Below, in pieces: positions 2,670 to 43,635 of a stretch of DNA of 64,000 nt. Origin of the DNA: Gammaproteobacteria bacterium (GTDB lineage: Bacteria; Pseudomonadota; Gammaproteobacteria; CAJXQU01); NCBI GenBank assembly GCA_965238175.1, contig CBDEGZ010000003.1:1152001-1216000 (forward strand), written 5' to 3'. Positions within the stretch are counted from its first letter, which is position 1. Every line of letters begins with the position of its first letter. The notes beneath the pieces are model-generated. The model was not told the DNA's origin. It saw only the letters and a program-made list of their open reading frames with translations, and did no database searches. The translations under genes were made by a program, and so were the position numbers.

Positions 2670-2710
2670 TTCTGAAACTGATCTTTGGTTTACCCAGACT
2701 AAAATTTAAC

Positions 2711-2811
2711 TAACCTGATGTGATGGTCTCCTCCCCCTTACGGCATGTAAGTGTCATGATTGAACCGTCATCAACACAATCAAAAGAGGAGAAGACCATC
2801 AAATCAGGTTA
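2711..2811 (+). mobile_element. Miniature IS110(IS1111)-derived element / left-end remnant forming a 19-bp terminal hairpin
   Basis: 2716-2798 is about 90% identical to the left end of the IS110 copies; taacctgatgtgatggtct / agaccatcaaatcaggtta pair at 18 of 19 positions. Confidence 0.85.
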
Positions 2812-18007: not shown

Positions 18008-18718
18008 TGTAAGACATTCTTAGCTTTTGTAATTCTTATTTCTTTGTTAGGAGGTACTTGGTGATTGAATAAAAATCAGCCCGAGAAATAGGTTGAATTA
18101 CAACAGATATTGTCGATTTTGGTTGAGGTGACTAAGGTCACTAAAGAGGATGTACAGCTTAGTAGCAAGGTAACGGGTGTTTAGTATTTGCACAACGTGC
18201 AAAATTACATTGTGAAATTTCTGAACAGGTGTTAAAGCGCAATGTAGAACTAGGTTAGTAAGGTAACATTAAACGATCAACCAATCCGTATTAATGTAGG
18301 TGAGTATGAAGATGTGCTTAGCGAAATGCAGATCAAAATATGATCAATAAAAAGTGGTAATTTGGAAGAGATCAAAAATTATTTGATATCGTCGAGTGAC
18401 AAATCACATTATTCCAACACGAAGTAAATTGGTAATGAAAGAGTTTAAGAAATAATCCTTAGTTTCGCAGTCAAAAATCGACGAAACTCATCGTCAATCA
18501 CGGTGCGATCAAAAATTACGTTTTATGGGATGAGTCGATCGTATTTGTATGATCTGGCTGATGAGACAAAGCGACAGCTAATGCAAATTCCGGGTGTTGT
18601 TGGTGGTAGAGAGGTTGGGAGTTATGGTTTGAAGTTGATCCACACCTGGTCTTTATCTGAGCCTTTAGACATACAAAACAGGCCATTTTTTATAAAAGCA
18701 AAAGTATTAGTCACAATT
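18008..18718 (+). pseudogene. Possible decayed RND efflux (adaptor + AcrB-like) fragments
   Basis: Stop-riddled frames giving KTFLAFVILISLLGG..VEVTKVTKEDVQLSSKVTG and LYDLADETKRQLMQIPGVVG. Confidence 0.35.
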
Positions 18719-18813
18719 TAACTTAACCTGATGTGATGGTCTCCTCCCCCTAACGGCATCTAGGTGCCATGATTGAACTGACATACACACAATCAAAAGA
18801 GGAGAAGACCAAA

Positions 18814-19827
18814 ATGAAGACTACAACAATCGGGTTAGACATAGCAAAAAACGTATTTCATGCTGTCTGCTGTAATCAACAAGGGCGTATAATCAAAAAG
18901 AAAATGTTAAAGCGAGCGCAGGTACTCTCCTTTTTTCAATCTCAACCTCCTTGTTTAGTCGCAATAGAATCTTGTGCAACGTCACAGTATTGGGCCCGAG
19001 CGATACAACAACAGGGACATCAGGTGAAATTACTACCACCTCAGCATGTTAACGCATTTCTAATCGGCAATAAGAATGATTATAACGATGCCTTGGCCAT
19101 CGCCGTTGCTGCGAAACAACCTCATTTAAAAAGTGTGGGCATTAAATCAGTTGAGCAACAAGACAACCAGGCACAACATAAAGCAAGAGACTTAGCGGTC
19201 AGACAAAGAACCGCATTATGTAACCAAATGAGAGCGCTTGTTGCAGAATATGGCATTAGCCTTCGTCCCGGCCTAAATACCCTACGTCAATCTATCCCGT
19301 TGCTATTAAGTGATGAGAACGAACGGTTGTCCGTTACTTTCAAAAGGATACTGCGCCAGCTAAAGGAACAATGGCAATCACTTGATGCCTGTATTGCGAC
19401 ATTTGACCAATTGATCATTCAATCGGCAAAAAACAATGCGATTTGCCAACGCTTACAAACTATTCCAGGGTTTGGGCCGATGGTCTCGAGCGCGTATTTT
19501 AATGAAGTGGGAAACGGCGCTCATTATCACAAAGGGCGCGATGTGTCCGCCTCATTAGGACTTGTTCCACGACAGTACAGTAGTGGTGGTAAAGAGGTGC
19601 TACTGGGGATCAGTAAACGCGGCAATAAATACCTTCGTTGTTTGTTAATTCTAGGCGCGAAGGCCGTGGTATCAAGAGCCAAAACGAAAGGCGATAAACT
19701 GAGTCAATGGATTAATCGTTTAGTTGAGACGCGGGGGCATAATCGAGCGTGTGTGGCGTATGCCAACAAAATGGCAAGAATGGCCTGGGCTATAACGGTT
19801 TCTGGTGATGACTACTCACCGGCCTAA
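18814..19827 (+). CDS. IS110 DEDD recombinase/transposase
   Basis: IGLDIAK, AIES, KNDYNDA, TIPGFG, GLVPRQYSSGG, ISKRGNKYLR; start placed after RBS gaggag. Confidence 0.96.
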   Translation: MKTTTIGLDIAKNVFHAVCCNQQGRIIKKKMLKRAQVLSFFQSQPPCLVAIESCATSQYWARAIQQQGHQVKLLPPQHVNAFLIGNKNDYNDALAIAVAAKQPHLKSVGIKSVEQQDNQAQHKARDLAVRQRTALCNQMRALVAEYGISLRPGLNTLRQSIPLLLSDENERLSVTFKRILRQLKEQWQSLDACIATFDQLIIQSAKNNAICQRLQTIPGFGPMVSSAYFNEVGNGAHYHKGRDVSASLGLVPRQYSSGGKEVLLGISKRGNKYLRCLLILGAKAVVSRAKTKGDKLSQWINRLVETRGHNRACVAYANKMARMAWAITVSGDDYSPA

Positions 19828-19869
19828 ATAGAGAGAACAAATCATTTCAACGAATTGCGAAGGTAAAAC

Positions 19870-20045
19870 TAAAGATGGCATAACAGGTCAAACCAGCCTA
19901 TTGAAAACCTGTCGAGCTCAGGGGTAACTAATACCGATAACCTGATAAGGAAAATAGGCGCGTAATACATCCAGGTCAGAAGTTGAAAACTTCATTGAAG
20001 GCCGTATATATGACAGCAATCCTGTCCCTGTTATCTGAATGTTTT
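19870..20045 (+). ncRNA. Putative bridge/seekRNA in the IS110 3' non-coding region (also in copies 2 and 3)
   Basis: Stem gcctatt/aataggc encloses CGAGCTCAG and ATAACCTGA (target matches); ACATC and TATATATGA match the circle junction; RNA ends approximate. Confidence 0.75.
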
Positions 20046-20083
20046 ATCTTGCAATACGGGAGGAGACCATATATGAGATCGGT

Positions 20084-20983
20084 TTAAGCCACGGTTGCTA
20101 ATGCCCGTTTTAAGTAATTAAATTCATCGCCAGACAAGTTCAAAGACGGCTTATTCTCTTTCAGACAATAAGCGATCAATCCACCGATAAGATTAAGCAT
20201 AAAACCATGTACAGAGCGGTGTCTGGAATGTTCTATCTGAGTAATGTTCTTCAACTGGTCATTAATGGTTTCAATAATAAAACGTCTGCTCAGCATGGCT
20301 CTGTCCCAGAGCGATGTAGCTTTTGCCTTCATGTTTTTTCGAACATTTGTCACCAACTCCACGCCTTTATCAAACAATTCGCTCGATAAGGCTTGGCTGA
20401 TATAGCCCTTATCCCCGTAAAGTTTGCCACTCATCGCCTTGCACAGCTCGGGAACAGGCTGACGGTCATCGATATTTCCCGGGGTGATTTTGGCTGCCAG
20501 GATATCCCCCTGATGATTGGTGATAAGGTGTAACTTGAAACCATAAAACCAACCCATTGTGCCTCGACCTCGCTGGGCGATGTCTTTGAAAACACGGTGG
20601 CGTGGAATACGGAGGTTGTGGCACACTTTTAAGGCGGTTGAATCAACAAACGCAACACCTGTGGGTTTCCCTTTAAGATAAGAAAAGTAGCTACATAAAG
20701 GAACGAGCACTGTCGGCATCACCTCCAGAAACCGCGTGTAGCTTAGCATCTGTGGAAAATCCTCGGCATAGAATTGAGCGATAAACCCTTTGTAGTAGTT
20801 CTTGAAATCGCGATGGTTGGAGTGATGAAACAGGATGATGATAGTCATGATTTCGCTGGCTTGCATTCGCCCAACTCGACGGCGTTTGCGTTGCCCATCG
20901 GTCAGTAATTGTTGTTCCCACAACGGTATGAAGTGCTGACAGAAGTCATCGACATCACAAAAGATTTCAACTAGTTTATCCAT
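20084..20983 (-). CDS. IS982 family transposase
   Basis: IFCDVDDFC, FVDST, GWFYGFKLHL, GDKGYIS, IETINDQLKN..QIEHSRHRS. Confidence 0.95.
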   Translation of the reverse strand: MDKLVEIFCDVDDFCQHFIPLWEQQLLTDGQRKRRRVGRMQASEIMTIIILFHHSNHRDFKNYYKGFIAQFYAEDFPQMLSYTRFLEVMPTVLVPLCSYFSYLKGKPTGVAFVDSTALKVCHNLRIPRHRVFKDIAQRGRGTMGWFYGFKLHLITNHQGDILAAKITPGNIDDRQPVPELCKAMSGKLYGDKGYISQALSSELFDKGVELVTNVRKNMKAKATSLWDRAMLSRRFIIETINDQLKNITQIEHSRHRSVHGFMLNLIGGLIAYCLKENKPSLNLSGDEFNYLKRALATVA

Positions 20984-21106
20984 TGGCTTGTTCTCCTTTT
21001 TTTTCAATTGTTTGGTCACAATTGATCTGATCGGGGGACAAGCCGTTAGTTCATTTCCTTAAGCCGAGTTGGGGTTAACTTAATAGAAATTGATAAAATC
21101 ACAGGC

Positions 21107-23712: not shown

Positions 23713-24938
23713 TGTAGAAGTTTAGACCCAATCTGACACATCACTAAATCAAGCGGAGCGTAGCGACGCTTGATTTAGTGAGAGTTACCCGCTTTGATGT
23801 AACTGCAACGTAAACATCAAAACACAAAGAGGTAACTCTCATGATTCATACTAATGACAAAGTTATAAAACATAAAGTTGGTCTACTCAATCTCGCTGAA
23901 GAACTCGGCAATGTCTCAAAAGCCTGCAAGATGATGGGTTTGTCCAGAGATACATTTTATCGCTACAAAGAAGCGGCTGATGAAGGCGGTGTAGAAGCCT
24001 TGTTTGATCGTAATCGGCGTACCCCAAATCTTAAAAACAGAATCGACCCGGCTATTGAAACCGTTGTGCTCGAGTATGCACTGGAAGAGCCCGCACATGG
24101 TCAAACGCGCACCAGTAACGAGCTGCGCAAACGGGGAACATTTGTCTCACCCAGTGGCGTTCGTTGTATCTGGCTTCGTCATGGTCTTGCTTGCTTTAAA
24201 GATCGCCTGAAGGCATTGTCTGATAAGGTAGCTGGTGAAGGCTTGATCCTCACTGAGTCTCAAGTCGCGGCGATGGAACGCAAGAAAGACGACGATGAGG
24301 CTTGTGGCGAGATAGAGACGGCACACCCTGGTTATCTTGGCTCGCAAGATACTTACTATGTCGGTACTTTCAAAGGCATTGGTCGGGTTTATCAACAAAC
24401 GTTTGTTGATACTTACAGCAAGGTCGCTCACGCGAAACTGTACCCGACTAAAACACCGATTACGGCAGCTGACATGCTCAATGACCGCGTCCTCCCATTC
24501 TACGAAGAACAACGTTTGCCTATGTTGCGCATTTTGACAGATAGAGGGACGGAGTATTGTGGGCGAGCTGACCAGCATGATTATCAGCTTTATATGGCGT
24601 TGAACAATATCGAACACACCAAAACCAAGGTCAAATCACCTCAGACGAATGGTATTTGTGAGCGATTCCATAAGACGATCCTCAATGAGTTTTATCAAGT
24701 CGCTTTGCGTAAGAAAATTTACCAATCGATTGATGAACTGCAACTCGACCTTGACGAATGGTTGCTCAAATACAATACTCAACGAACTCACCAAGGCAAA
24801 ATGTGCTGCGGGAGGACGCCGATGGAAACACTCATCGACGGACAAGCTATCTGGAAGGAAAAGTTTGTGAATTAAACTTAACCTGACAGTCGGTTACTGA
24901 TAATTGGGTAACTGTCAGATCAAATCTGAATTTCTACA
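23713..24938 (+). mobile_element. IS481 family element, copy 1 (1226 bp)
   Basis: TGTAGAA...TTCTACA ends, 7-bp TSD GGTTATG. Confidence 0.95.
23841..24875 (+). CDS. IS481 family transposase
   Basis: HTH N-terminus, rve core SQDT..TDRGTEY..PQTNGICERF. Confidence 0.96.
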   Translation: MIHTNDKVIKHKVGLLNLAEELGNVSKACKMMGLSRDTFYRYKEAADEGGVEALFDRNRRTPNLKNRIDPAIETVVLEYALEEPAHGQTRTSNELRKRGTFVSPSGVRCIWLRHGLACFKDRLKALSDKVAGEGLILTESQVAAMERKKDDDEACGEIETAHPGYLGSQDTYYVGTFKGIGRVYQQTFVDTYSKVAHAKLYPTKTPITAADMLNDRVLPFYEEQRLPMLRILTDRGTEYCGRADQHDYQLYMALNNIEHTKTKVKSPQTNGICERFHKTILNEFYQVALRKKIYQSIDELQLDLDEWLLKYNTQRTHQGKMCCGRTPMETLIDGQAIWKEKFVN

Positions 24939-24962
24939 GGTTATGGCATAAAAAAGCATGCT

Positions 24963-26183: not shown

Positions 26184-26287
26184 AAGTTTTGAGTTTAGAG
26201 GAATCTCAAAGGGAGCTTTGCACGAAATGAATAAGAGTTCAAAAAAGTATGCTGTTAAAGTTTTGCAGATAACTTATCCTGAGTTCA

Positions 26288-27632
26288 TATATGGTCTCCT
26301 CCCGTATTGCAAGATAAAACATTCAGATAACAGGGACAGGATTGCTGTCATATATACGGCCTTCAATGAAGTTTTCAACTTCTGACCTGGATGTATTACG
26401 CGCCTATTTTCCTTATCAGGTTATCGGTATTAGTTACCCCTGAGCTCGACAGGTTTTCAATAGGCTGGTTTGACCTGTTATGCCATCTTTAGTTTTACCT
26501 TCGCAATTCGTTGAAATGATTTGTTCTCTCTATTTAGGCCGGTGAGTAGTCATCACCAGAAACCGTTATAGCCCAGGCCATTCTTGCCATTTTGTTGGCA
26601 TACGCCACACACGCTCGATTATGCCCCCGCGTCTCAACTAAACGATTAATCCATTGACTCAGTTTATCGCCTTTCGTTTTGGCTCTTGATACCACGGCCT
26701 TCGCGCCTAGAATTAACAAACAACGAAGGTATTTATTGCCGCGTTTACTGATCCCCAGTAGCACCTCTTTACCACCACTACTGTACTGTCGTGGAACAAG
26801 TCCTAATGAGGCGGACACATCGCGCCCTTTGTGATAATGAGCGCCGTTTCCCACTTCATTAAAATACGCGCTCGAGACCATCGGCCCAAACCCTGGAATA
26901 GTTTGTAAGCGTTGGCAAATCGCATTGTTTTTTGCCGATTGAATGATCAATTGGTCAAATGTCGCAATACAGGCATCAAGTGATTGCCATTGTTCCTTTA
27001 GCTGGCGCAGTATCCTTTTGAAAGTAACGGACAACCGTTCGTTCTCATCACTTAATAGCAACGGGATAGATTGACGTAGGGTATTTAGGCCGGGACGAAG
27101 GCTAATGCCATATTCTGCAACAAGCGCTCTCATTTGGTTACATAATGCGGTTCTTTGTCTGACCGCTAAGTCTCTTGCTTTATGTTGTGCCTGGTTGTCT
27201 TGTTGCTCAACTGATTTAATGCCCACACTTTTTAAATGAGGTTGTTTCGCAGCAACGGCGATGGCCAAGGCATCGTTATAATCATTCTTATTGCCGATTA
27301 GAAATGCGTTAACATGCTGAGGTGGTAGTAATTTCACCTGATGTCCCTGTTGTTGTATCGCTCGGGCCCAATACTGTGACGTTGCACAAGATTCTATTGC
27401 GACTAAACAAGGAGGTTGAGATTGAAAAAAGGAGAGTACCTGCGCTCGCTTTAACATTTTCTTTTTGATTATACGCCCTTGTTGATTACAGCAGACAGCA
27501 TGAAATACGTTTTTTGCTATGTCTAACCCGATTGTTGTAGTCTTCATTTTGGTCTTCTCCTCTTTTGATTGTGTGTATGTCAGTTCAATCATGGCACCTA
27601 GATGCCGTTAGGGGGAGGAGACCATCACATCA
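26288..27632 (-). mobile_element. IS110 (IS1111) element, copy 2
   Basis: Same 1345-bp element; reconstructed target TAACC|TGAACTCAGGATAAG. Confidence 0.95.
26534..27547 (-). CDS. IS110 transposase
   Basis: Protein identical to copy 1. Confidence 0.96.
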   Translation of the reverse strand: MKTTTIGLDIAKNVFHAVCCNQQGRIIKKKMLKRAQVLSFFQSQPPCLVAIESCATSQYWARAIQQQGHQVKLLPPQHVNAFLIGNKNDYNDALAIAVAAKQPHLKSVGIKSVEQQDNQAQHKARDLAVRQRTALCNQMRALVAEYGISLRPGLNTLRQSIPLLLSDENERLSVTFKRILRQLKEQWQSLDACIATFDQLIIQSAKNNAICQRLQTIPGFGPMVSSAYFNEVGNGAHYHKGRDVSASLGLVPRQYSSGGKEVLLGISKRGNKYLRCLLILGAKAVVSRAKTKGDKLSQWINRLVETRGHNRACVAYANKMARMAWAITVSGDDYSPA

Positions 27633-42145: not shown

Positions 42146-43490
42146 TGATGTGATGGTCTCCTCCCCCTAACGGCATCTAGGTGCCATGATTGAACTGACA
42201 TACACACAATCAAAAGAGGAGAAGACCAAAATGAAGACTACAACAATCGGGTTAGACATAGCAAAAAACGTATTTCATGCTGTCTGCTGTAATCAACAAG
42301 GGCGTATAATCAAAAAGAAAATGTTAAAGCGAGCGCAGGTACTCTCCTTTTTTCAATCTCAACCTCCTTGTTTAGTCGCAATAGAATCTTGTGCAACGTC
42401 ACAGTATTGGGCCCGAGCGATACAACAACAGGGACATCAGGTGAAATTACTACCACCTCAGCATGTTAACGCATTTCTAATCGGCAATAAGAATGATTAT
42501 AACGATGCCTTGGCCATCGCCGTTGCTGCGAAACAACCTCATTTAAAAAGTGTGGGCATTAAATCAGTTGAGCAACAAGACAACCAGGCACAACATAAAG
42601 CAAGAGACTTAGCGGTCAGACAAAGAACCGCATTATGTAACCAAATGAGAGCGCTTGTTGCAGAATATGGCATTAGCCTTCGTCCCGGCCTAAATACCCT
42701 ACGTCAATCTATCCCGTTGCTATTAAGTGATGAGAACGAACGGTTGTCCGTTACTTTCAAAAGGATACTGCGCCAGCTAAAGGAACAATGGCAATCACTT
42801 GATGCCTGTATTGCGACATTTGACCAATTGATCATTCAATCGGCAAAAAACAATGCGATTTGCCAACGCTTACAAACTATTCCAGGGTTTGGGCCGATGG
42901 TCTCGAGCGCGTATTTTAATGAAGTGGGAAACGGCGCTCATTATCACAAAGGGCGCGATGTGTCCGCCTCATTAGGACTTGTTCCACGACAGTACAGTAG
43001 TGGTGGTAAAGAGGTGCTACTGGGGATCAGTAAACGCGGCAATAAATACCTTCGTTGTTTGTTAATTCTAGGCGCGAAGGCCGTGGTATCAAGAGCCAAA
43101 ACGAAAGGCGATAAACTGAGTCAATGGATTAATCGTTTAGTTGAGACGCGGGGGCATAATCGAGCGTGTGTGGCGTATGCCAACAAAATGGCAAGAATGG
43201 CCTGGGCTATAACGGTTTCTGGTGATGACTACTCACCGGCCTAAATAGAGAGAACAAATCATTTCAACGAATTGCGAAGGTAAAACTAAAGATGGCATAA
43301 CAGGTCAAACCAGCCTATTGAAAACCTGTCGAGCTCAGGGGTAACTAATACCGATAACCTGATAAGGAAAATAGGCGCGTAATACATCCAGGTCAGAAGT
43401 TGAAAACTTCATTGAAGGCCGTATATATGACAGCAATCCTGTCCCTGTTATCTGAATGTTTTATCTTGCAATACGGGAGGAGACCATATA
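42146..43490 (+). mobile_element. IS110 (IS1111) element, copy 3
   Basis: Same 1345-bp element; reconstructed target AAACC|TGAACTCGGGATAAG. Confidence 0.95.
42231..43244 (+). CDS. IS110 transposase
   Basis: Protein identical to copy 1. Confidence 0.96.
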   Translation: MKTTTIGLDIAKNVFHAVCCNQQGRIIKKKMLKRAQVLSFFQSQPPCLVAIESCATSQYWARAIQQQGHQVKLLPPQHVNAFLIGNKNDYNDALAIAVAAKQPHLKSVGIKSVEQQDNQAQHKARDLAVRQRTALCNQMRALVAEYGISLRPGLNTLRQSIPLLLSDENERLSVTFKRILRQLKEQWQSLDACIATFDQLIIQSAKNNAICQRLQTIPGFGPMVSSAYFNEVGNGAHYHKGRDVSASLGLVPRQYSSGGKEVLLGISKRGNKYLRCLLILGAKAVVSRAKTKGDKLSQWINRLVETRGHNRACVAYANKMARMAWAITVSGDDYSPA

Positions 43491-43635
43491 TGAACTCGGG
43501 ATAAGAAATACTGCGTAGGTTATGCAAAGCCTAGCGTATCAACGTTTCTGAGAGCCCAGTTCTCTGCTAGTTTTGTCTTAGTTTATCAATCTAAATCTAT
43601 TAACACTATGATTTAGTAGGTTTTTAACCTACTTA

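What the first reader, a model, noticed from the sequence alone, without database searches (positions are those of the whole stretch)
19870..20045. Readable bridge/seekRNA: target and donor guides in the IS110 3' non-coding region
Seen, first loop: stem GCCTATT (19896-19902) / AATAGGC (19953-19959), with inner hairpin GGTA-actaa-TACC, encloses CGAGCTCAG (19913-19921) and ATAACCTGA (19937-19945). These correspond to the bottom strand of the right target half and the top strand of the left half. Together they spell (A)TAACCTGAGCTCG, 1-2 mismatches from each observed site. Seen, second loop (inner hairpin GAAGTT-gaa-AACTTC): ACATC (19967-19971) and TATATATGA (20005-20013) match the end-joined junction CCATATA|TGATGTG, with shared core TG(A). 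Known: IS110/IS1111 recombinases use a bispecific ncRNA, encoded downstream of the transposase in IS1111. Inference: a natural, apparently intact programmable RNA-guided recombinase with three in-window examples of mismatch tolerance.
Basis: partly seen in the sequence, partly recalled or inferred. Interest (0 to 1): 0.9.

Follow-up and report, generated by a model that had tools for sequence, protein, structure and literature searches.

The report
RNA guide inside a jumping gene
This is the guide ("bridge" or "seek") RNA gene of an IS1111-type insertion sequence, whose loops spell out the site where the element inserts; it is a clean natural example of a mechanism first described in 2024, not a new one.

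Summary
Window 18731-20075 is a 1345-bp IS110-family element of the IS1111 type: a DEDD transposase, 13-bp subterminal inverted repeats and a 248-nt 3' non-coding region. The window holds 3 identical copies and the genome 25.

Across 44 homologous elements (50-78% transposase identity) the RNA scaffold is conserved with compensatory changes: 20 of 31 pairs, 97.3% of cells paired against 31-39% when partners are slid. The two strands of the first internal loop change together with each element's own flanking DNA (0 of 10,000 permutations reach the observed match).

Empty sites in the same genome confirm the element's boundaries. The core dinucleotide TG comes from the alignment with the homologues. 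The second loop tracks the element's ends more weakly: 43 of 44 and 38 of 44 at the variable positions.

Of 24 mapped insertions, none is a perfect match to the guide. The left half, TAACCTGA, is near-invariant. The right half is loose, and 19 of 24 sites carry A where the guide specifies G.

No RNA data exist, so expression is inferred. This is a new member of a known kind, of moderate to low interest.

The parts
18729..18730 (+). Core dinucleotide TG at the left junction; the same TG recurs at 20074-20075.
   Evidence: Empty sites TAACCTGAACTCGG in the same genome against occupied sites. The core varies TG/CG among homologues.
18731..18735 (+). Left terminal extension ATGTG, outside the inverted repeat.
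   Evidence: It reads ATGAG, ATGAA or ATGTA in homologues.
18736..18748 (+). Left subterminal inverted repeat ATGGTCTCCTCCC.
   Evidence: It pairs with 20058-20070 and is conserved in most homologues.
18814..19827 (+). Transposase/recombinase gene: 337 aa, DEDD RuvC-like domain plus Transposase_20 domain.
   Evidence: Pfam PF01548 (E 3.2e-16) and PF02371 (E 6e-20). NCBIfam NF033542 'IS110 family RNA-guided transposase', 302.9 bits against a cut-off of 140. D9, E52, D89 and D92 are invariant in 44 of 44, and GLVPRQYSSG lies at 249-258.
19883..20025 (+). Predicted bridge/seekRNA body, closed by helix H1 (ACAGG 19883-19887 with CCTGT 20021-20025). The true 5' and 3' ends are unknown.
   Evidence: RNAalifold on 44 sequences and pair counts. 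Covariance model R1 hits all 25 genomic copies.
19896..19959 (+). Target-binding arm. It comprises H2 (19896-19902 with 19953-19959), H3 (CCT 19908-19910 with AGG 19948-19950) and the apical hairpin H4 (19923-19926 with 19932-19935).
   Evidence: H2 has 6 of 8 pairs with compensatory change and H4 has 4 of 4.
19912..19921 (+). Target guide 1, on the 5' strand of the internal loop: TCGAGCTCAG. Its reverse complement CTGAGCTCGA reads 1 nt left of the core, the core, and 7 nt of the right flank. It is complementary to the top strand.
19937..19945 (+). Target guide 2, on the 3' strand of the internal loop: ATAACCTGA. This equals the left flank plus core TG plus one further nt. It is complementary to the bottom strand.
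   Evidence: TAACCTGA is present at 23 of 24 mapped left junctions (position 2 is T in 23 of 24; positions 3-9 are invariant).
19960..20017 (+). Donor-binding arm. It comprises H5 (GC 19960-19961 with GC 20016-20017), H6 (GGTC 19974-19977 with GGCC 20000-20003) and hairpin H7 (19979-19984 with 19988-19993).
   Evidence: H6 has 2 of 4 and H7 has 5 of 5 pairs with compensatory change.
19966..19972 (+). Putative donor guide 1: TACATCC. Its ACATC is complementary to GATGT of the left end, TG-ATGTG.
   Evidence: The A/T position covaries with left-end ATGT/ATGA in 43 of 44.
20005..20012 (+). Putative donor guide 2: TATATATG. It matches the right end CAT-ATA-TG.
   Evidence: The Y of ATATAYG agrees with the right-junction core in 38 of 44.
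20049..20054 (+). TTGCAA, a -35-like hexamer. After a 17-nt spacer it meets TATG (20072-20075). TATG becomes TATGAT only when joined to the left end, which would give a junction promoter.
   Evidence: Sequence. 40 of 44 homologues have the same geometry. Published precedent was read. This part is inferred, not shown.
20058..20070 (+). Right subterminal inverted repeat GGGAGGAGACCAT, followed by ATA (20071-20073) and core TG (20074-20075).
26286..27630 (-). Second copy of the element; its RNA region is about 26325-26487.
42148..43492 (+). Third copy of the element; its RNA region is about 43291-43453.

Best explanation
The 3' non-coding region of an IS1111-type insertion sequence encodes a structured RNA of about 145-165 nt, a bridge RNA or long seekRNA. 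This RNA tells the element's DEDD recombinase where to insert.

A closing helix encloses two arms. In the first arm an internal loop carries two guide strands. The 5' strand (TCGAGCTCAG) pairs with the top strand of the right target half plus the core. The 3' strand (ATAACCTGA) pairs with the bottom strand of the left half plus the core. Together they specify TAACC-TG-AGCTCG, with exchange at the TG core.

In the second arm an internal loop carries short stretches matching the element's own joined ends (CAT-ATA-TG-ATGTG). These presumably hold the circular donor.

Transcription most likely comes from a promoter assembled when the ends join (TTGCAA, 17 nt, TATG+AT). That promoter would read through the transposase gene into the RNA.

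Shown here:
- the anatomy of the element and RNA;
- the conserved structure;
- guide-target covariation;
- the boundaries, from empty sites;
- 25 near-identical copies in the genome.

Inferred:
- that the RNA is made and binds the protein;
- that the donor loop is used;
- that the junction promoter is used.
For: Family. Pfam DEDD_Tnp_IS110 and Transposase_20 match. NCBIfam 'IS110 family RNA-guided transposase' scores 302.9 bits. The DEDD residues and the GL-P----SG motif are present. There are 13-bp subterminal repeats and a 248-nt 3' non-coding region against 83 nt at the 5' side.

Boundaries. Six unoccupied sites matching TAACCTGA + [AG][ACT]TC[GA] exist in the same genome, 4 of them ending in TCGGGATAAG.

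Structure. There are 31 consensus pairs, 20 with changes on both sides. 97.3% of cells pair, against 31.6-39.0% when partners are slid, and 0 of 500 shuffles reach any measure.

Guide-target covariation in 42 loci. Guide 1 matches its own flank at 7.69 of 10 against 3.71 for other loci. Guide 2 matches at 6.45 of 8 against 3.18. 0 of 10,000 permutations reach these totals. A locus's own flank is the best or tied-best partner in 32 of 42 for each guide.

Natural retargeting. L001 has 77% identical protein. Its guides read GATCTGA and TGAGGTTA and match its own flanks.

Out of sample. Among 12 loci not used to build the model, 9 of the 10 testable ones have a 6-10-nt exact guide-1 match exactly at the right junction.

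Scaffold homology. Model R1 hits the 3' non-coding region of IS5075 (69.7 bits, E 6.9e-17) and of a Klebsiella plasmid element (78.5 bits).

Donor loop. It agrees with the ends at 43 of 44 and 38 of 44 at the variable positions. On a quick tree these switches arise in at least 3 and at least 5 separate lineages.

Recent activity. There are 25 copies at 99.9-100% identity.

Guide order. The order matches the published IS1111 seekRNA order.
Against: There is no direct evidence that the RNA exists. No RNA run was listed, and Rfam 15 has no matching family.

The single-sequence fold is no more stable than shuffles. No sigma-70-like promoter was found on the + strand within the integrated element.

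None of the 24 mapped insertion sites matches the guide perfectly. 19 of 24 have A where the guide specifies G. The one perfect 13-mer in the genome (C3:393937) is unoccupied.

Five of the 24 sites have 4-7 mismatches across all 15 compared positions, most of them in the right half, so guide 1 alone does not dictate the site. Three further sites abut another insertion sequence, so their right halves may not be the original target.

The donor matches are short, 5 and 7-8 nt. Published work shows that an 82-nt form with only the target loop suffices for ISEc11.

The homologues are related, so permutation figures overstate independence.
Confidence: 0.9

Rival explanations
1. Only the first arm is a guide, as in the short seekRNA. 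On this view the second arm is scaffold or a processing substrate. The ends are recognised by the protein through the long subterminal inverted repeats, and the donor 'guides' are conserved scaffold that happens to resemble the equally conserved ends.
For: Siddiquee et al. found that the 82-nt form was sufficient, and even more efficient, for ISEc11. They state that the role of the long form is not established. The donor matches here are only 5 nt (ACATC) and 7-8 nt. The ends and the loop are both highly conserved, so few informative changes exist. In one subgroup the first donor strand (ATCATTG/ATCATTT) matches the left end in only 4 of 7 positions without wobble pairs.
Against: The A/T position in donor strand 1 follows the left end in 43 of 44. 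The C/T in donor strand 2 follows the right-junction core in 38 of 44. These switches lie in separate parts of the tree. [quoted passage not shown]
Confidence: 0.2
2. The element and its RNA gene are intact-looking relics that no longer move. On this view the 25 copies reflect an old burst or homogenisation by gene conversion.
For: No site is a perfect guide match, and the one perfect site is empty. No joints or empty-site contigs were seen in the three DNA runs. Those runs are contigs, which cannot show rare forms.
Against: Of the 24 complete copies, 22 are identical. The other two differ at one base each. The 25th copy is cut by the contig start and matches at 100% over 1317 bases. The catalytic residues are intact. 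All 25 RNA regions score 149-152 bits.
Confidence: 0.07
3. The conserved region is a cis-acting DNA or mRNA element, such as a terminator, a stability element or a protein-binding site. On this view its resemblance to the flanks is coincidental.
For: A weak terminator-like hairpin was called at 20012-20026. There is no expression data.
Against: Guide-flank agreement across 42 loci gives 0 of 10,000 permutations, and it holds out of sample in 9 of 10. G-U pairs occur on this strand only, for example 8 and 7 in H1 and 16 U-G at one H2 pair. This points to a single-stranded, sense-strand molecule.
Confidence: 0.02

Closest known systems
IS1111-type seekRNA (ISEc11, ISPa11, ISKpn4, ISPst6; Siddiquee et al. 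2024, PMC11187229; sections 6, 8, 9, 10, 13, 14 read)
   Same: The RNA lies downstream of a ~340-aa DEDD transposase in an element with subterminal inverted repeats. The two target matches overlap at the insertion point, with the top-strand match 5' of the bottom-strand match. Close relatives are naturally retargeted. A junction-type promoter is expected. The arm sizes here (64 nt, and 143 nt inside H1) are of the order of the published short (70-100 nt) and long (145-170 nt) forms.
   Different: This is a different element, target and host. Nothing was tested at the bench here. I could not compare sequences with ISEc11, ISPa11 or ISPst6 because none was fetched.
IS621 bridge RNA (Durrant et al. 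2024, PMC11208160; Hiraizumi et al. 2024; passages read)
   Same: It is a bispecific RNA with a target-binding and a donor-binding internal loop. Each loop reads both strands around a core dinucleotide. Natural targets show 0-2 mismatches to the guides. The recombinase C-terminal domain aligns to the IS621 structure 8WT6 (E 2.3e-4).
   Different: IS621 encodes its RNA in the left end, upstream of the gene, with the guide order reversed and the core CT. Here the RNA is in the right end and the core is TG. The two arms are closed by a common helix, giving a multi-loop. The inverted repeats are 13 bp rather than 2-3 bp.
IS5075 / IS4321 (IS1111 family, targeting Tn21-family inverted repeats)
   Same: The transposase is 35% identical. 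The 3' non-coding region is recognised by the model built here (69.7 bits). Its guide-1 position matches its right flank over 9 nt, TTCCGTTTT.
   Different: The target and the inverted-repeat sequence differ. These are plasmid and transposon-borne elements in Enterobacteriaceae.

Membership tests
IS110 family, IS1111 group (insertion sequence) | DEDD (RuvC-like) transposase with a C-terminal Transposase_20 domain, about 330-350 aa | tested here: met
   PF01548 and PF02371. NF033542 scores 302.9 bits against a cut-off of 140. The protein is 337 aa. D9, E52, D89 and D92 are invariant in 44 of 44 homologues.
IS110 family, IS1111 group (insertion sequence) | Conserved GL-P----S/T-G motif in the C-terminal domain | tested here: met
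   GLVPRQYSSG lies at residues 249-258. It aligns to the GLTPRRYESG stretch of the IS621 structure. The motif definition comes from the paper.
IS110 family, IS1111 group (insertion sequence) | Subterminal inverted repeats of 7-17 bp with short terminal extensions | tested here: met
   The 13-bp repeats ATGGTCTCCTCCC and GGGAGGAGACCAT lie 5 nt from the left end and 3 nt from the right end.
IS110 family, IS1111 group (insertion sequence) | The longer non-coding region lies downstream of the transposase gene | tested here: met
   248 nt downstream (19828-20075) against 83 nt upstream (18731-18813).
IS110 family, IS1111 group (insertion sequence) | Site- and orientation-specific insertion without target duplication | tested here: met
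   24 mapped insertions share TAACC-TG on the left in one orientation. Empty sites show that only the core is shared.
Bridge RNA / seekRNA (IS1111 type) | Conserved secondary structure supported by covariation | tested here: met
   20 of 31 pairs have compensatory change. 97.3% pair against 31-39% when slid. 0 of 500 shuffles reach the observed values.
Bridge RNA / seekRNA (IS1111 type) | Two loop strands match opposite strands of the target and overlap at the insertion point, with the top-strand match 5' of the bottom-strand match | tested here: met
   The order follows the paper.
Bridge RNA / seekRNA (IS1111 type) | Guides covary with targets among relatives | tested here: met
   0 of 10,000 permutations in 42 loci. 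9 of 10 testable out-of-sample loci agree.
Bridge RNA / seekRNA (IS1111 type) | A second loop complementary to the element's joined ends (donor) | tested here: inconclusive
   Agreement is 43 of 44 and 38 of 44 at the variable positions. However, the matches are short, few positions vary, and a subgroup fits only with G-U pairs.
Bridge RNA / seekRNA (IS1111 type) | The RNA is transcribed and co-purifies with the transposase | not testable with these tools
   No RNA run was listed. Contigs cannot show it.
Bridge RNA / seekRNA (IS1111 type) | Changing the guides retargets insertion | not testable with these tools
   This is a bench test. Natural retargeting in relatives is the nearest surrogate.
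Bridge RNA / seekRNA (IS1111 type) | Scaffold homologous to that of recognised IS1111-family elements | tested here: met
   Model R1 hits IS5075 (69.7 bits) and a Klebsiella plasmid IS110-family element (78.5 bits). It was not tested against ISEc11, ISPa11 or ISPst6.

The most novel reading that the evidence does not exclude
The 24 natural insertions may record rules of IS1111-type targeting that differ from simple Watson-Crick reading of both guides.

The left guide plus core behaves as a strict 8-nt determinant. The right guide is permissive, and one position (C in the RNA opposite A in 19 of 24 sites) is systematically mismatched. The only perfect site is empty.

One reading is that imperfect sites accumulate copies because excision, which also needs guide-flank pairing, is impaired there.

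A weak signal suggests that IS1111-type RNAs also carry handshake-like nucleotides after the core in the donor loop. These track the right target flank in 25 of 44 loci, against 17.1 expected, with 52 of 10,000 permutations reaching that value.
Probability: 0.2. Interest if true: 0.5.

Novelty: new member of a known kind. Interest (0 to 1): 0.33.

Why it matters
RNA-guided IS110/IS1111 recombinases are being developed as programmable tools for inserting large DNA. This locus adds a compact natural system: a 337-aa protein and an RNA of about 150 nt.

It comes with an unusually rich internal record:
- 24 mapped insertions and several empty sites in one genome;
- at least 44 relatives whose guides have drifted with their targets.

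Together these give a natural map of which guide positions are strict and which are tolerant in the IS1111 branch. That branch is less studied structurally than IS621. The locus does not change the known mechanism.

Tried and rejected
Rfam 15 at E up to 1 over 18600-20200 gave no relevant family, only a chance cow-rumen-1 match outside the element.

A megablast of the element against plasmids found nothing.

Single-sequence folding gave z-scores of -0.49 and -0.63, so energy alone is uninformative.

The promoter scan found no + strand promoter inside the integrated element.

No RNA holder was listed for the element. Laying the three DNA runs, all from one sample and held as contigs only, gave no joints. 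It showed only that the element assembles as a collapsed high-depth repeat. This is no evidence on expression or excision.

A possible extra outer helix, GATGGCA (19874-19880) with TGTTATC (20029-20035), was considered. It was not counted because its 3' partner is poorly conserved in homologues.

The handshake-like signal is weak and confounded by relatedness, so it is kept only as a lead.

I considered that TAACCTGA might belong to the element rather than to the target. I rejected this because of the empty sites.

I considered that the three sites reading TGAAC+TGTAGAAG are genuine off-targets. This could not be decided, because a ~1.23-kb insertion sequence abuts them and may have arrived later.

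The careful tree did not finish, so only the quick tree was used. L049 and L069 sit on long branches, so their independence is probable but not certain.

The host organism was not identified. The nearest relatives of the element are in marine Gammaproteobacteria.

Supplementary files of the papers were not opened. Durrant et al.'s Supplementary Table 5 and the ISfinder-wide target lists of Siddiquee et al. may already include this element or a close relative. That bears on the novelty rating.

Search listings only were seen for the other papers. The Prosseda 2006 Pjunc paper was seen only as a reference entry.

Full report
WHAT IS THERE

The finding lies in the 3' non-coding region of a 1345-bp insertion sequence at window 18731-20075. 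Its single gene (18814-19827, 337 aa) matches Pfam DEDD_Tnp_IS110 and Transposase_20. It also matches NCBIfam NF033542, 'IS110 family RNA-guided transposase', at 302.9 bits against a cut-off of 140.

D9, E52, D89 and D92 are invariant in 44 of 44 aligned homologues. The motif GLVPRQYSSG lies at residues 249-258. The C-terminal domain aligns to the solved IS621 recombinase, 8WT6 (E 2.3e-4).

The element has 13-bp subterminal inverted repeats: ATGGTCTCCTCCC at 18736-18748 and GGGAGGAGACCAT at 20058-20070. They are set 5 nt and 3 nt in from the ends. The downstream non-coding region is 248 nt, against 83 nt upstream. These are the features that define the IS1111 group.

COPIES, BOUNDARIES AND TARGET

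The window holds three internally identical copies. The genome, which is 3.35 Mb in 3 contigs, holds 25 full-length copies at 99.9-100% identity. One of them is cut by the contig start.

Six unoccupied sites matching TAACCTGA + [AG][ACT]TC[GA] (4 of them ending in TCGGGATAAG) occur elsewhere in the chromosome. Comparing them with occupied sites shows that the element carries ATGTG...ATA, and that only TG(A) is shared between the two junctions.

Among homologues the shared dinucleotide is TG or CG, so I take TG as the core.

Across the 24 complete sites, positions 2-9 (TAACCTGA) are invariant or nearly so. The right half is looser:
- A in 24 of 24 at the first position;
- then A 19, G 3, C 1, T 1;
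- then C 16, T 5, A 3;
- then T 22, C 17 and G 14 at the next three positions.

THE OBSERVATION

The guide-encoded target is TAACC-TG-AGCTCG. The three window sites differ from it at 1, 2 and 2 positions. Genome-wide, 0 of 24 sites match perfectly. Over positions 2-14 of the table, by my count, 9 have one mismatch and five have 3-5.

The one perfect 13-mer in the genome, at C3:393937, is unoccupied. It lies 15 bp from another copy.

STRUCTURE

I fetched 80 related loci (50-78% protein identity) and aligned 44 non-coding regions with clean ends. RNAalifold gives 31 pairs in 7 helices, and 20 pairs keep pairing through changes on both sides.

On that structure 97.3% of cells form standard pairs. 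The figure is 31.6-39.0% when 3' partners are slid by 1-3 columns. 0 of 500 column shuffles reach any of the five measures.

In window coordinates the structure is:
- H1: 19883-87 with 20021-25. It closes two arms.
- Arm 1: H2 (19896-902 with 19953-59), H3 (19908-10 with 19948-50) and hairpin H4 (19923-26 with 19932-35). The internal loop between H3 and H4 carries TCGAGCTCAG (19912-21) on the 5' side and ATAACCTGA (19937-45) on the 3' side.
- Arm 2: H5 (19960-61 with 20016-17), H6 (19974-77 with 20000-03) and hairpin H7 (19979-84 with 19988-93). The loop between H5 and H6 carries TACATCC (19966-72) and TATATATG (20005-12).

G-U pairs occur on this strand only, which fits a sense-strand RNA. 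Single-sequence folding recovers H2, H4 and H7 but is no more stable than shuffles.

DO THE GUIDES TRACK THE TARGETS?

Yes. I read the ends of each locus from its inverted repeats, independently of the guides. I then compared each locus's loop strands with its own flanks.

In 42 loci with complete flanks:
- Guide 1 matches its own right junction at a mean of 7.69 of 10 positions, against 3.71 for other loci's junctions.
- Guide 2 matches its own left junction at 6.45 of 8, against 3.18.
- 0 of 10,000 permutations reach either total.
- The own flank is the best or tied-best partner in 32 of 42 for each guide.

Some examples:
- L001 has 77% identical protein. Its guides read GATCTGA and TGAGGTTA and match its own flanks.
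- L005 and L006 read TGGGTATA.
- L012, with a CG core, reads CCGCAATGA.
- Three rows are off by one alignment register (L010, L043, L076) and score low. I did not correct them.

Twelve further loci were not used to build model R1. Ten of them are testable at the right junction. L008 runs off its contig and L054 has a disrupted right end. Of the ten, nine have a 6-10-nt exact guide-1 match exactly at the junction, and L077 has 5 nt.

These twelve include IS5075 (9 nt, TTCCGTTTT) and a Klebsiella plasmid element (8 nt). R1 recognises their non-coding regions at 69.7 and 78.5 bits. The scaffold is therefore homologous across IS1111-family elements down to 35% protein identity.

In the window's own genome R1 finds 25 matches, one in each copy, and no orphan RNA genes.

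THE DONOR LOOP

The ends are much more conserved than the targets, so there is less to test.

The fourth base of the left extension is ATGT or ATGA. It agrees with the second base of the first donor strand (ACATC or TCATC) in 43 of 44. The C/T in ATATAYG agrees with the right-junction core in 38 of 44.

On a quick tree the ATGT state appears in the window's clade (8 rows, support 100) and in two long-branched rows elsewhere. TG/CG switches occur in at least five places.

In a Desulfuromonadales-type subgroup the first donor strand fits the left end only if G-U pairs are allowed. There the left-junction core reads TG while the guides and the right junction read CG.

I rate the donor reading as probable but not settled. 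The published short seekRNA, which lacks this arm, is sufficient for ISEc11.

EXPRESSION

None could be shown. No RNA run was listed, and the DNA runs are contigs.

The right end carries TTGCAA (20049-54). After 17 nt it carries TATG, which becomes TATGAT only when joined to the left end. 40 of 44 homologues share this geometry, reading TACGAT, TATGAT or TATAAT.

Siddiquee et al. state that in ISEc11 the only promoter found is the one formed by joining the ends. [quoted passage not shown] I infer the same here.

COMPARISON WITH WHAT IS KNOWN

The anatomy matches the IS1111-type seekRNA in four respects:
- its position downstream of the gene;
- the guide order, top-strand match first;
- overlap of the two matches at the insertion point;
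- natural retargeting in relatives.

It also matches Durrant et al.'s statements that IS1111 elements encode the bridge RNA in the right end and that donor-binding nucleotides often sit in a multi-loop. They predicted such RNAs in 93.0% of ISfinder IS1111 elements.

It differs from IS621 in location, guide order, core (TG against CT) and length of the inverted repeats.

Natural IS110 targets show zero to two mismatches to their guides in most cases. The window's three sites fall within that range. The looser genome-wide right half, and the systematic C-opposite-A position, are the only features that go a little beyond the published picture.

VERDICT

This is a new member of a known kind.

Its value is as a well-documented natural data set for the IS1111 branch, not as a new mechanism. 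Confidence in the bridge/seekRNA reading is 0.9. Interest is 0.33.

Noticed in passing
window 2703-2798: A 97-bp copy of the element's left end only, 90.7% identical. It runs from ATGTG-ATGGTCTCC to just before the transposase start. It is flanked by TAACCTGA on one side and its reverse complement TCAGGTTA on the other (2711-2718 +, 2804-2811 -). It looks like a miniature or relic derivative. Similar left-end fragments lie at C3:2897435 and C3:1393278.
   Followed up: partly
window 23713-24943 and about 60 places in the genome (e.g. C3:946626-947851): An unrelated ~1.23-kb insertion sequence is present in about 60 copies. Its ends read TGTAGAAGTTTAGA...TCTGAATTTCTACA, with 7-bp target duplications. 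Near its right end it carries TAACCTGACAGTCG, a perfect left half-site for the IS1111-type element. Only 1 of about 60 such sites is occupied (C3:589242). The genome is very rich in insertion sequences.
   Followed up: partly
window 20084-21019 (-): An insertion sequence with a DDE_Tnp_1_3 transposase abuts copy A. Its end GATCGGTTTAAGCCACGG occurs twice in the genome. Both times it is preceded by the IS1111-type element, with different left flanks.
   Followed up: partly
C3:946624, 2867338, 1052805 (outside the window): Three copies of the IS1111-type element have right flank TGAAC followed directly by the ~1.23-kb insertion sequence. The four other copies of that sequence with the same AC prefix lack TAACCTGA upstream. 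It is unclear which element arrived first.
   Followed up: partly
C3:393937 (outside the window): This is the only perfect 13-nt match to the guide-encoded target in the chromosome (TAACCTGAGCTCG). It is unoccupied and lies 15 bp from the right end of another copy.
   Followed up: no
L026, L028, L047, L053, L056, L058, L070, L078: In these homologues the left-junction core reads TG while the right-junction core and both target guides read CG. This could reflect a donor/target core mismatch resolved by replication, or a one-base core.
   Followed up: no
L045:997-1165: A second, weaker match to the RNA model (49.5 bits) lies about 2.4 kb upstream of the main one, on the same strand. It is a possible orphan or relic RNA gene.
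   Followed up: no
L075:3763-3830: The right end appears to carry two tandem copies of the right inverted repeat (GGGATGGGTCCATA twice) before the flank that matches guide 1.
   Followed up: no
window 18736-18813: The left inverted repeat ATGGTCTCCTCC is largely complementary to GAGGAGAAGACCA just upstream of the transposase start codon. That stretch includes the likely ribosome-binding site. It is a possible translational hairpin in read-through transcripts.
   Followed up: no
C3:2357915-2358378 and C3:2897502-2898110: These are relics of two other IS110-family transposase genes, at 72.5% and 35% protein identity over partial lengths. Neither is accompanied by an RNA-model hit.
   Followed up: no
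genome contigs C1 and C2: Two small contigs of 10,967 and 8,481 bases have G+C of 55.8% and 43.9%, against 40.4% for the chromosome. They may be plasmids or foreign DNA.
   Followed up: no
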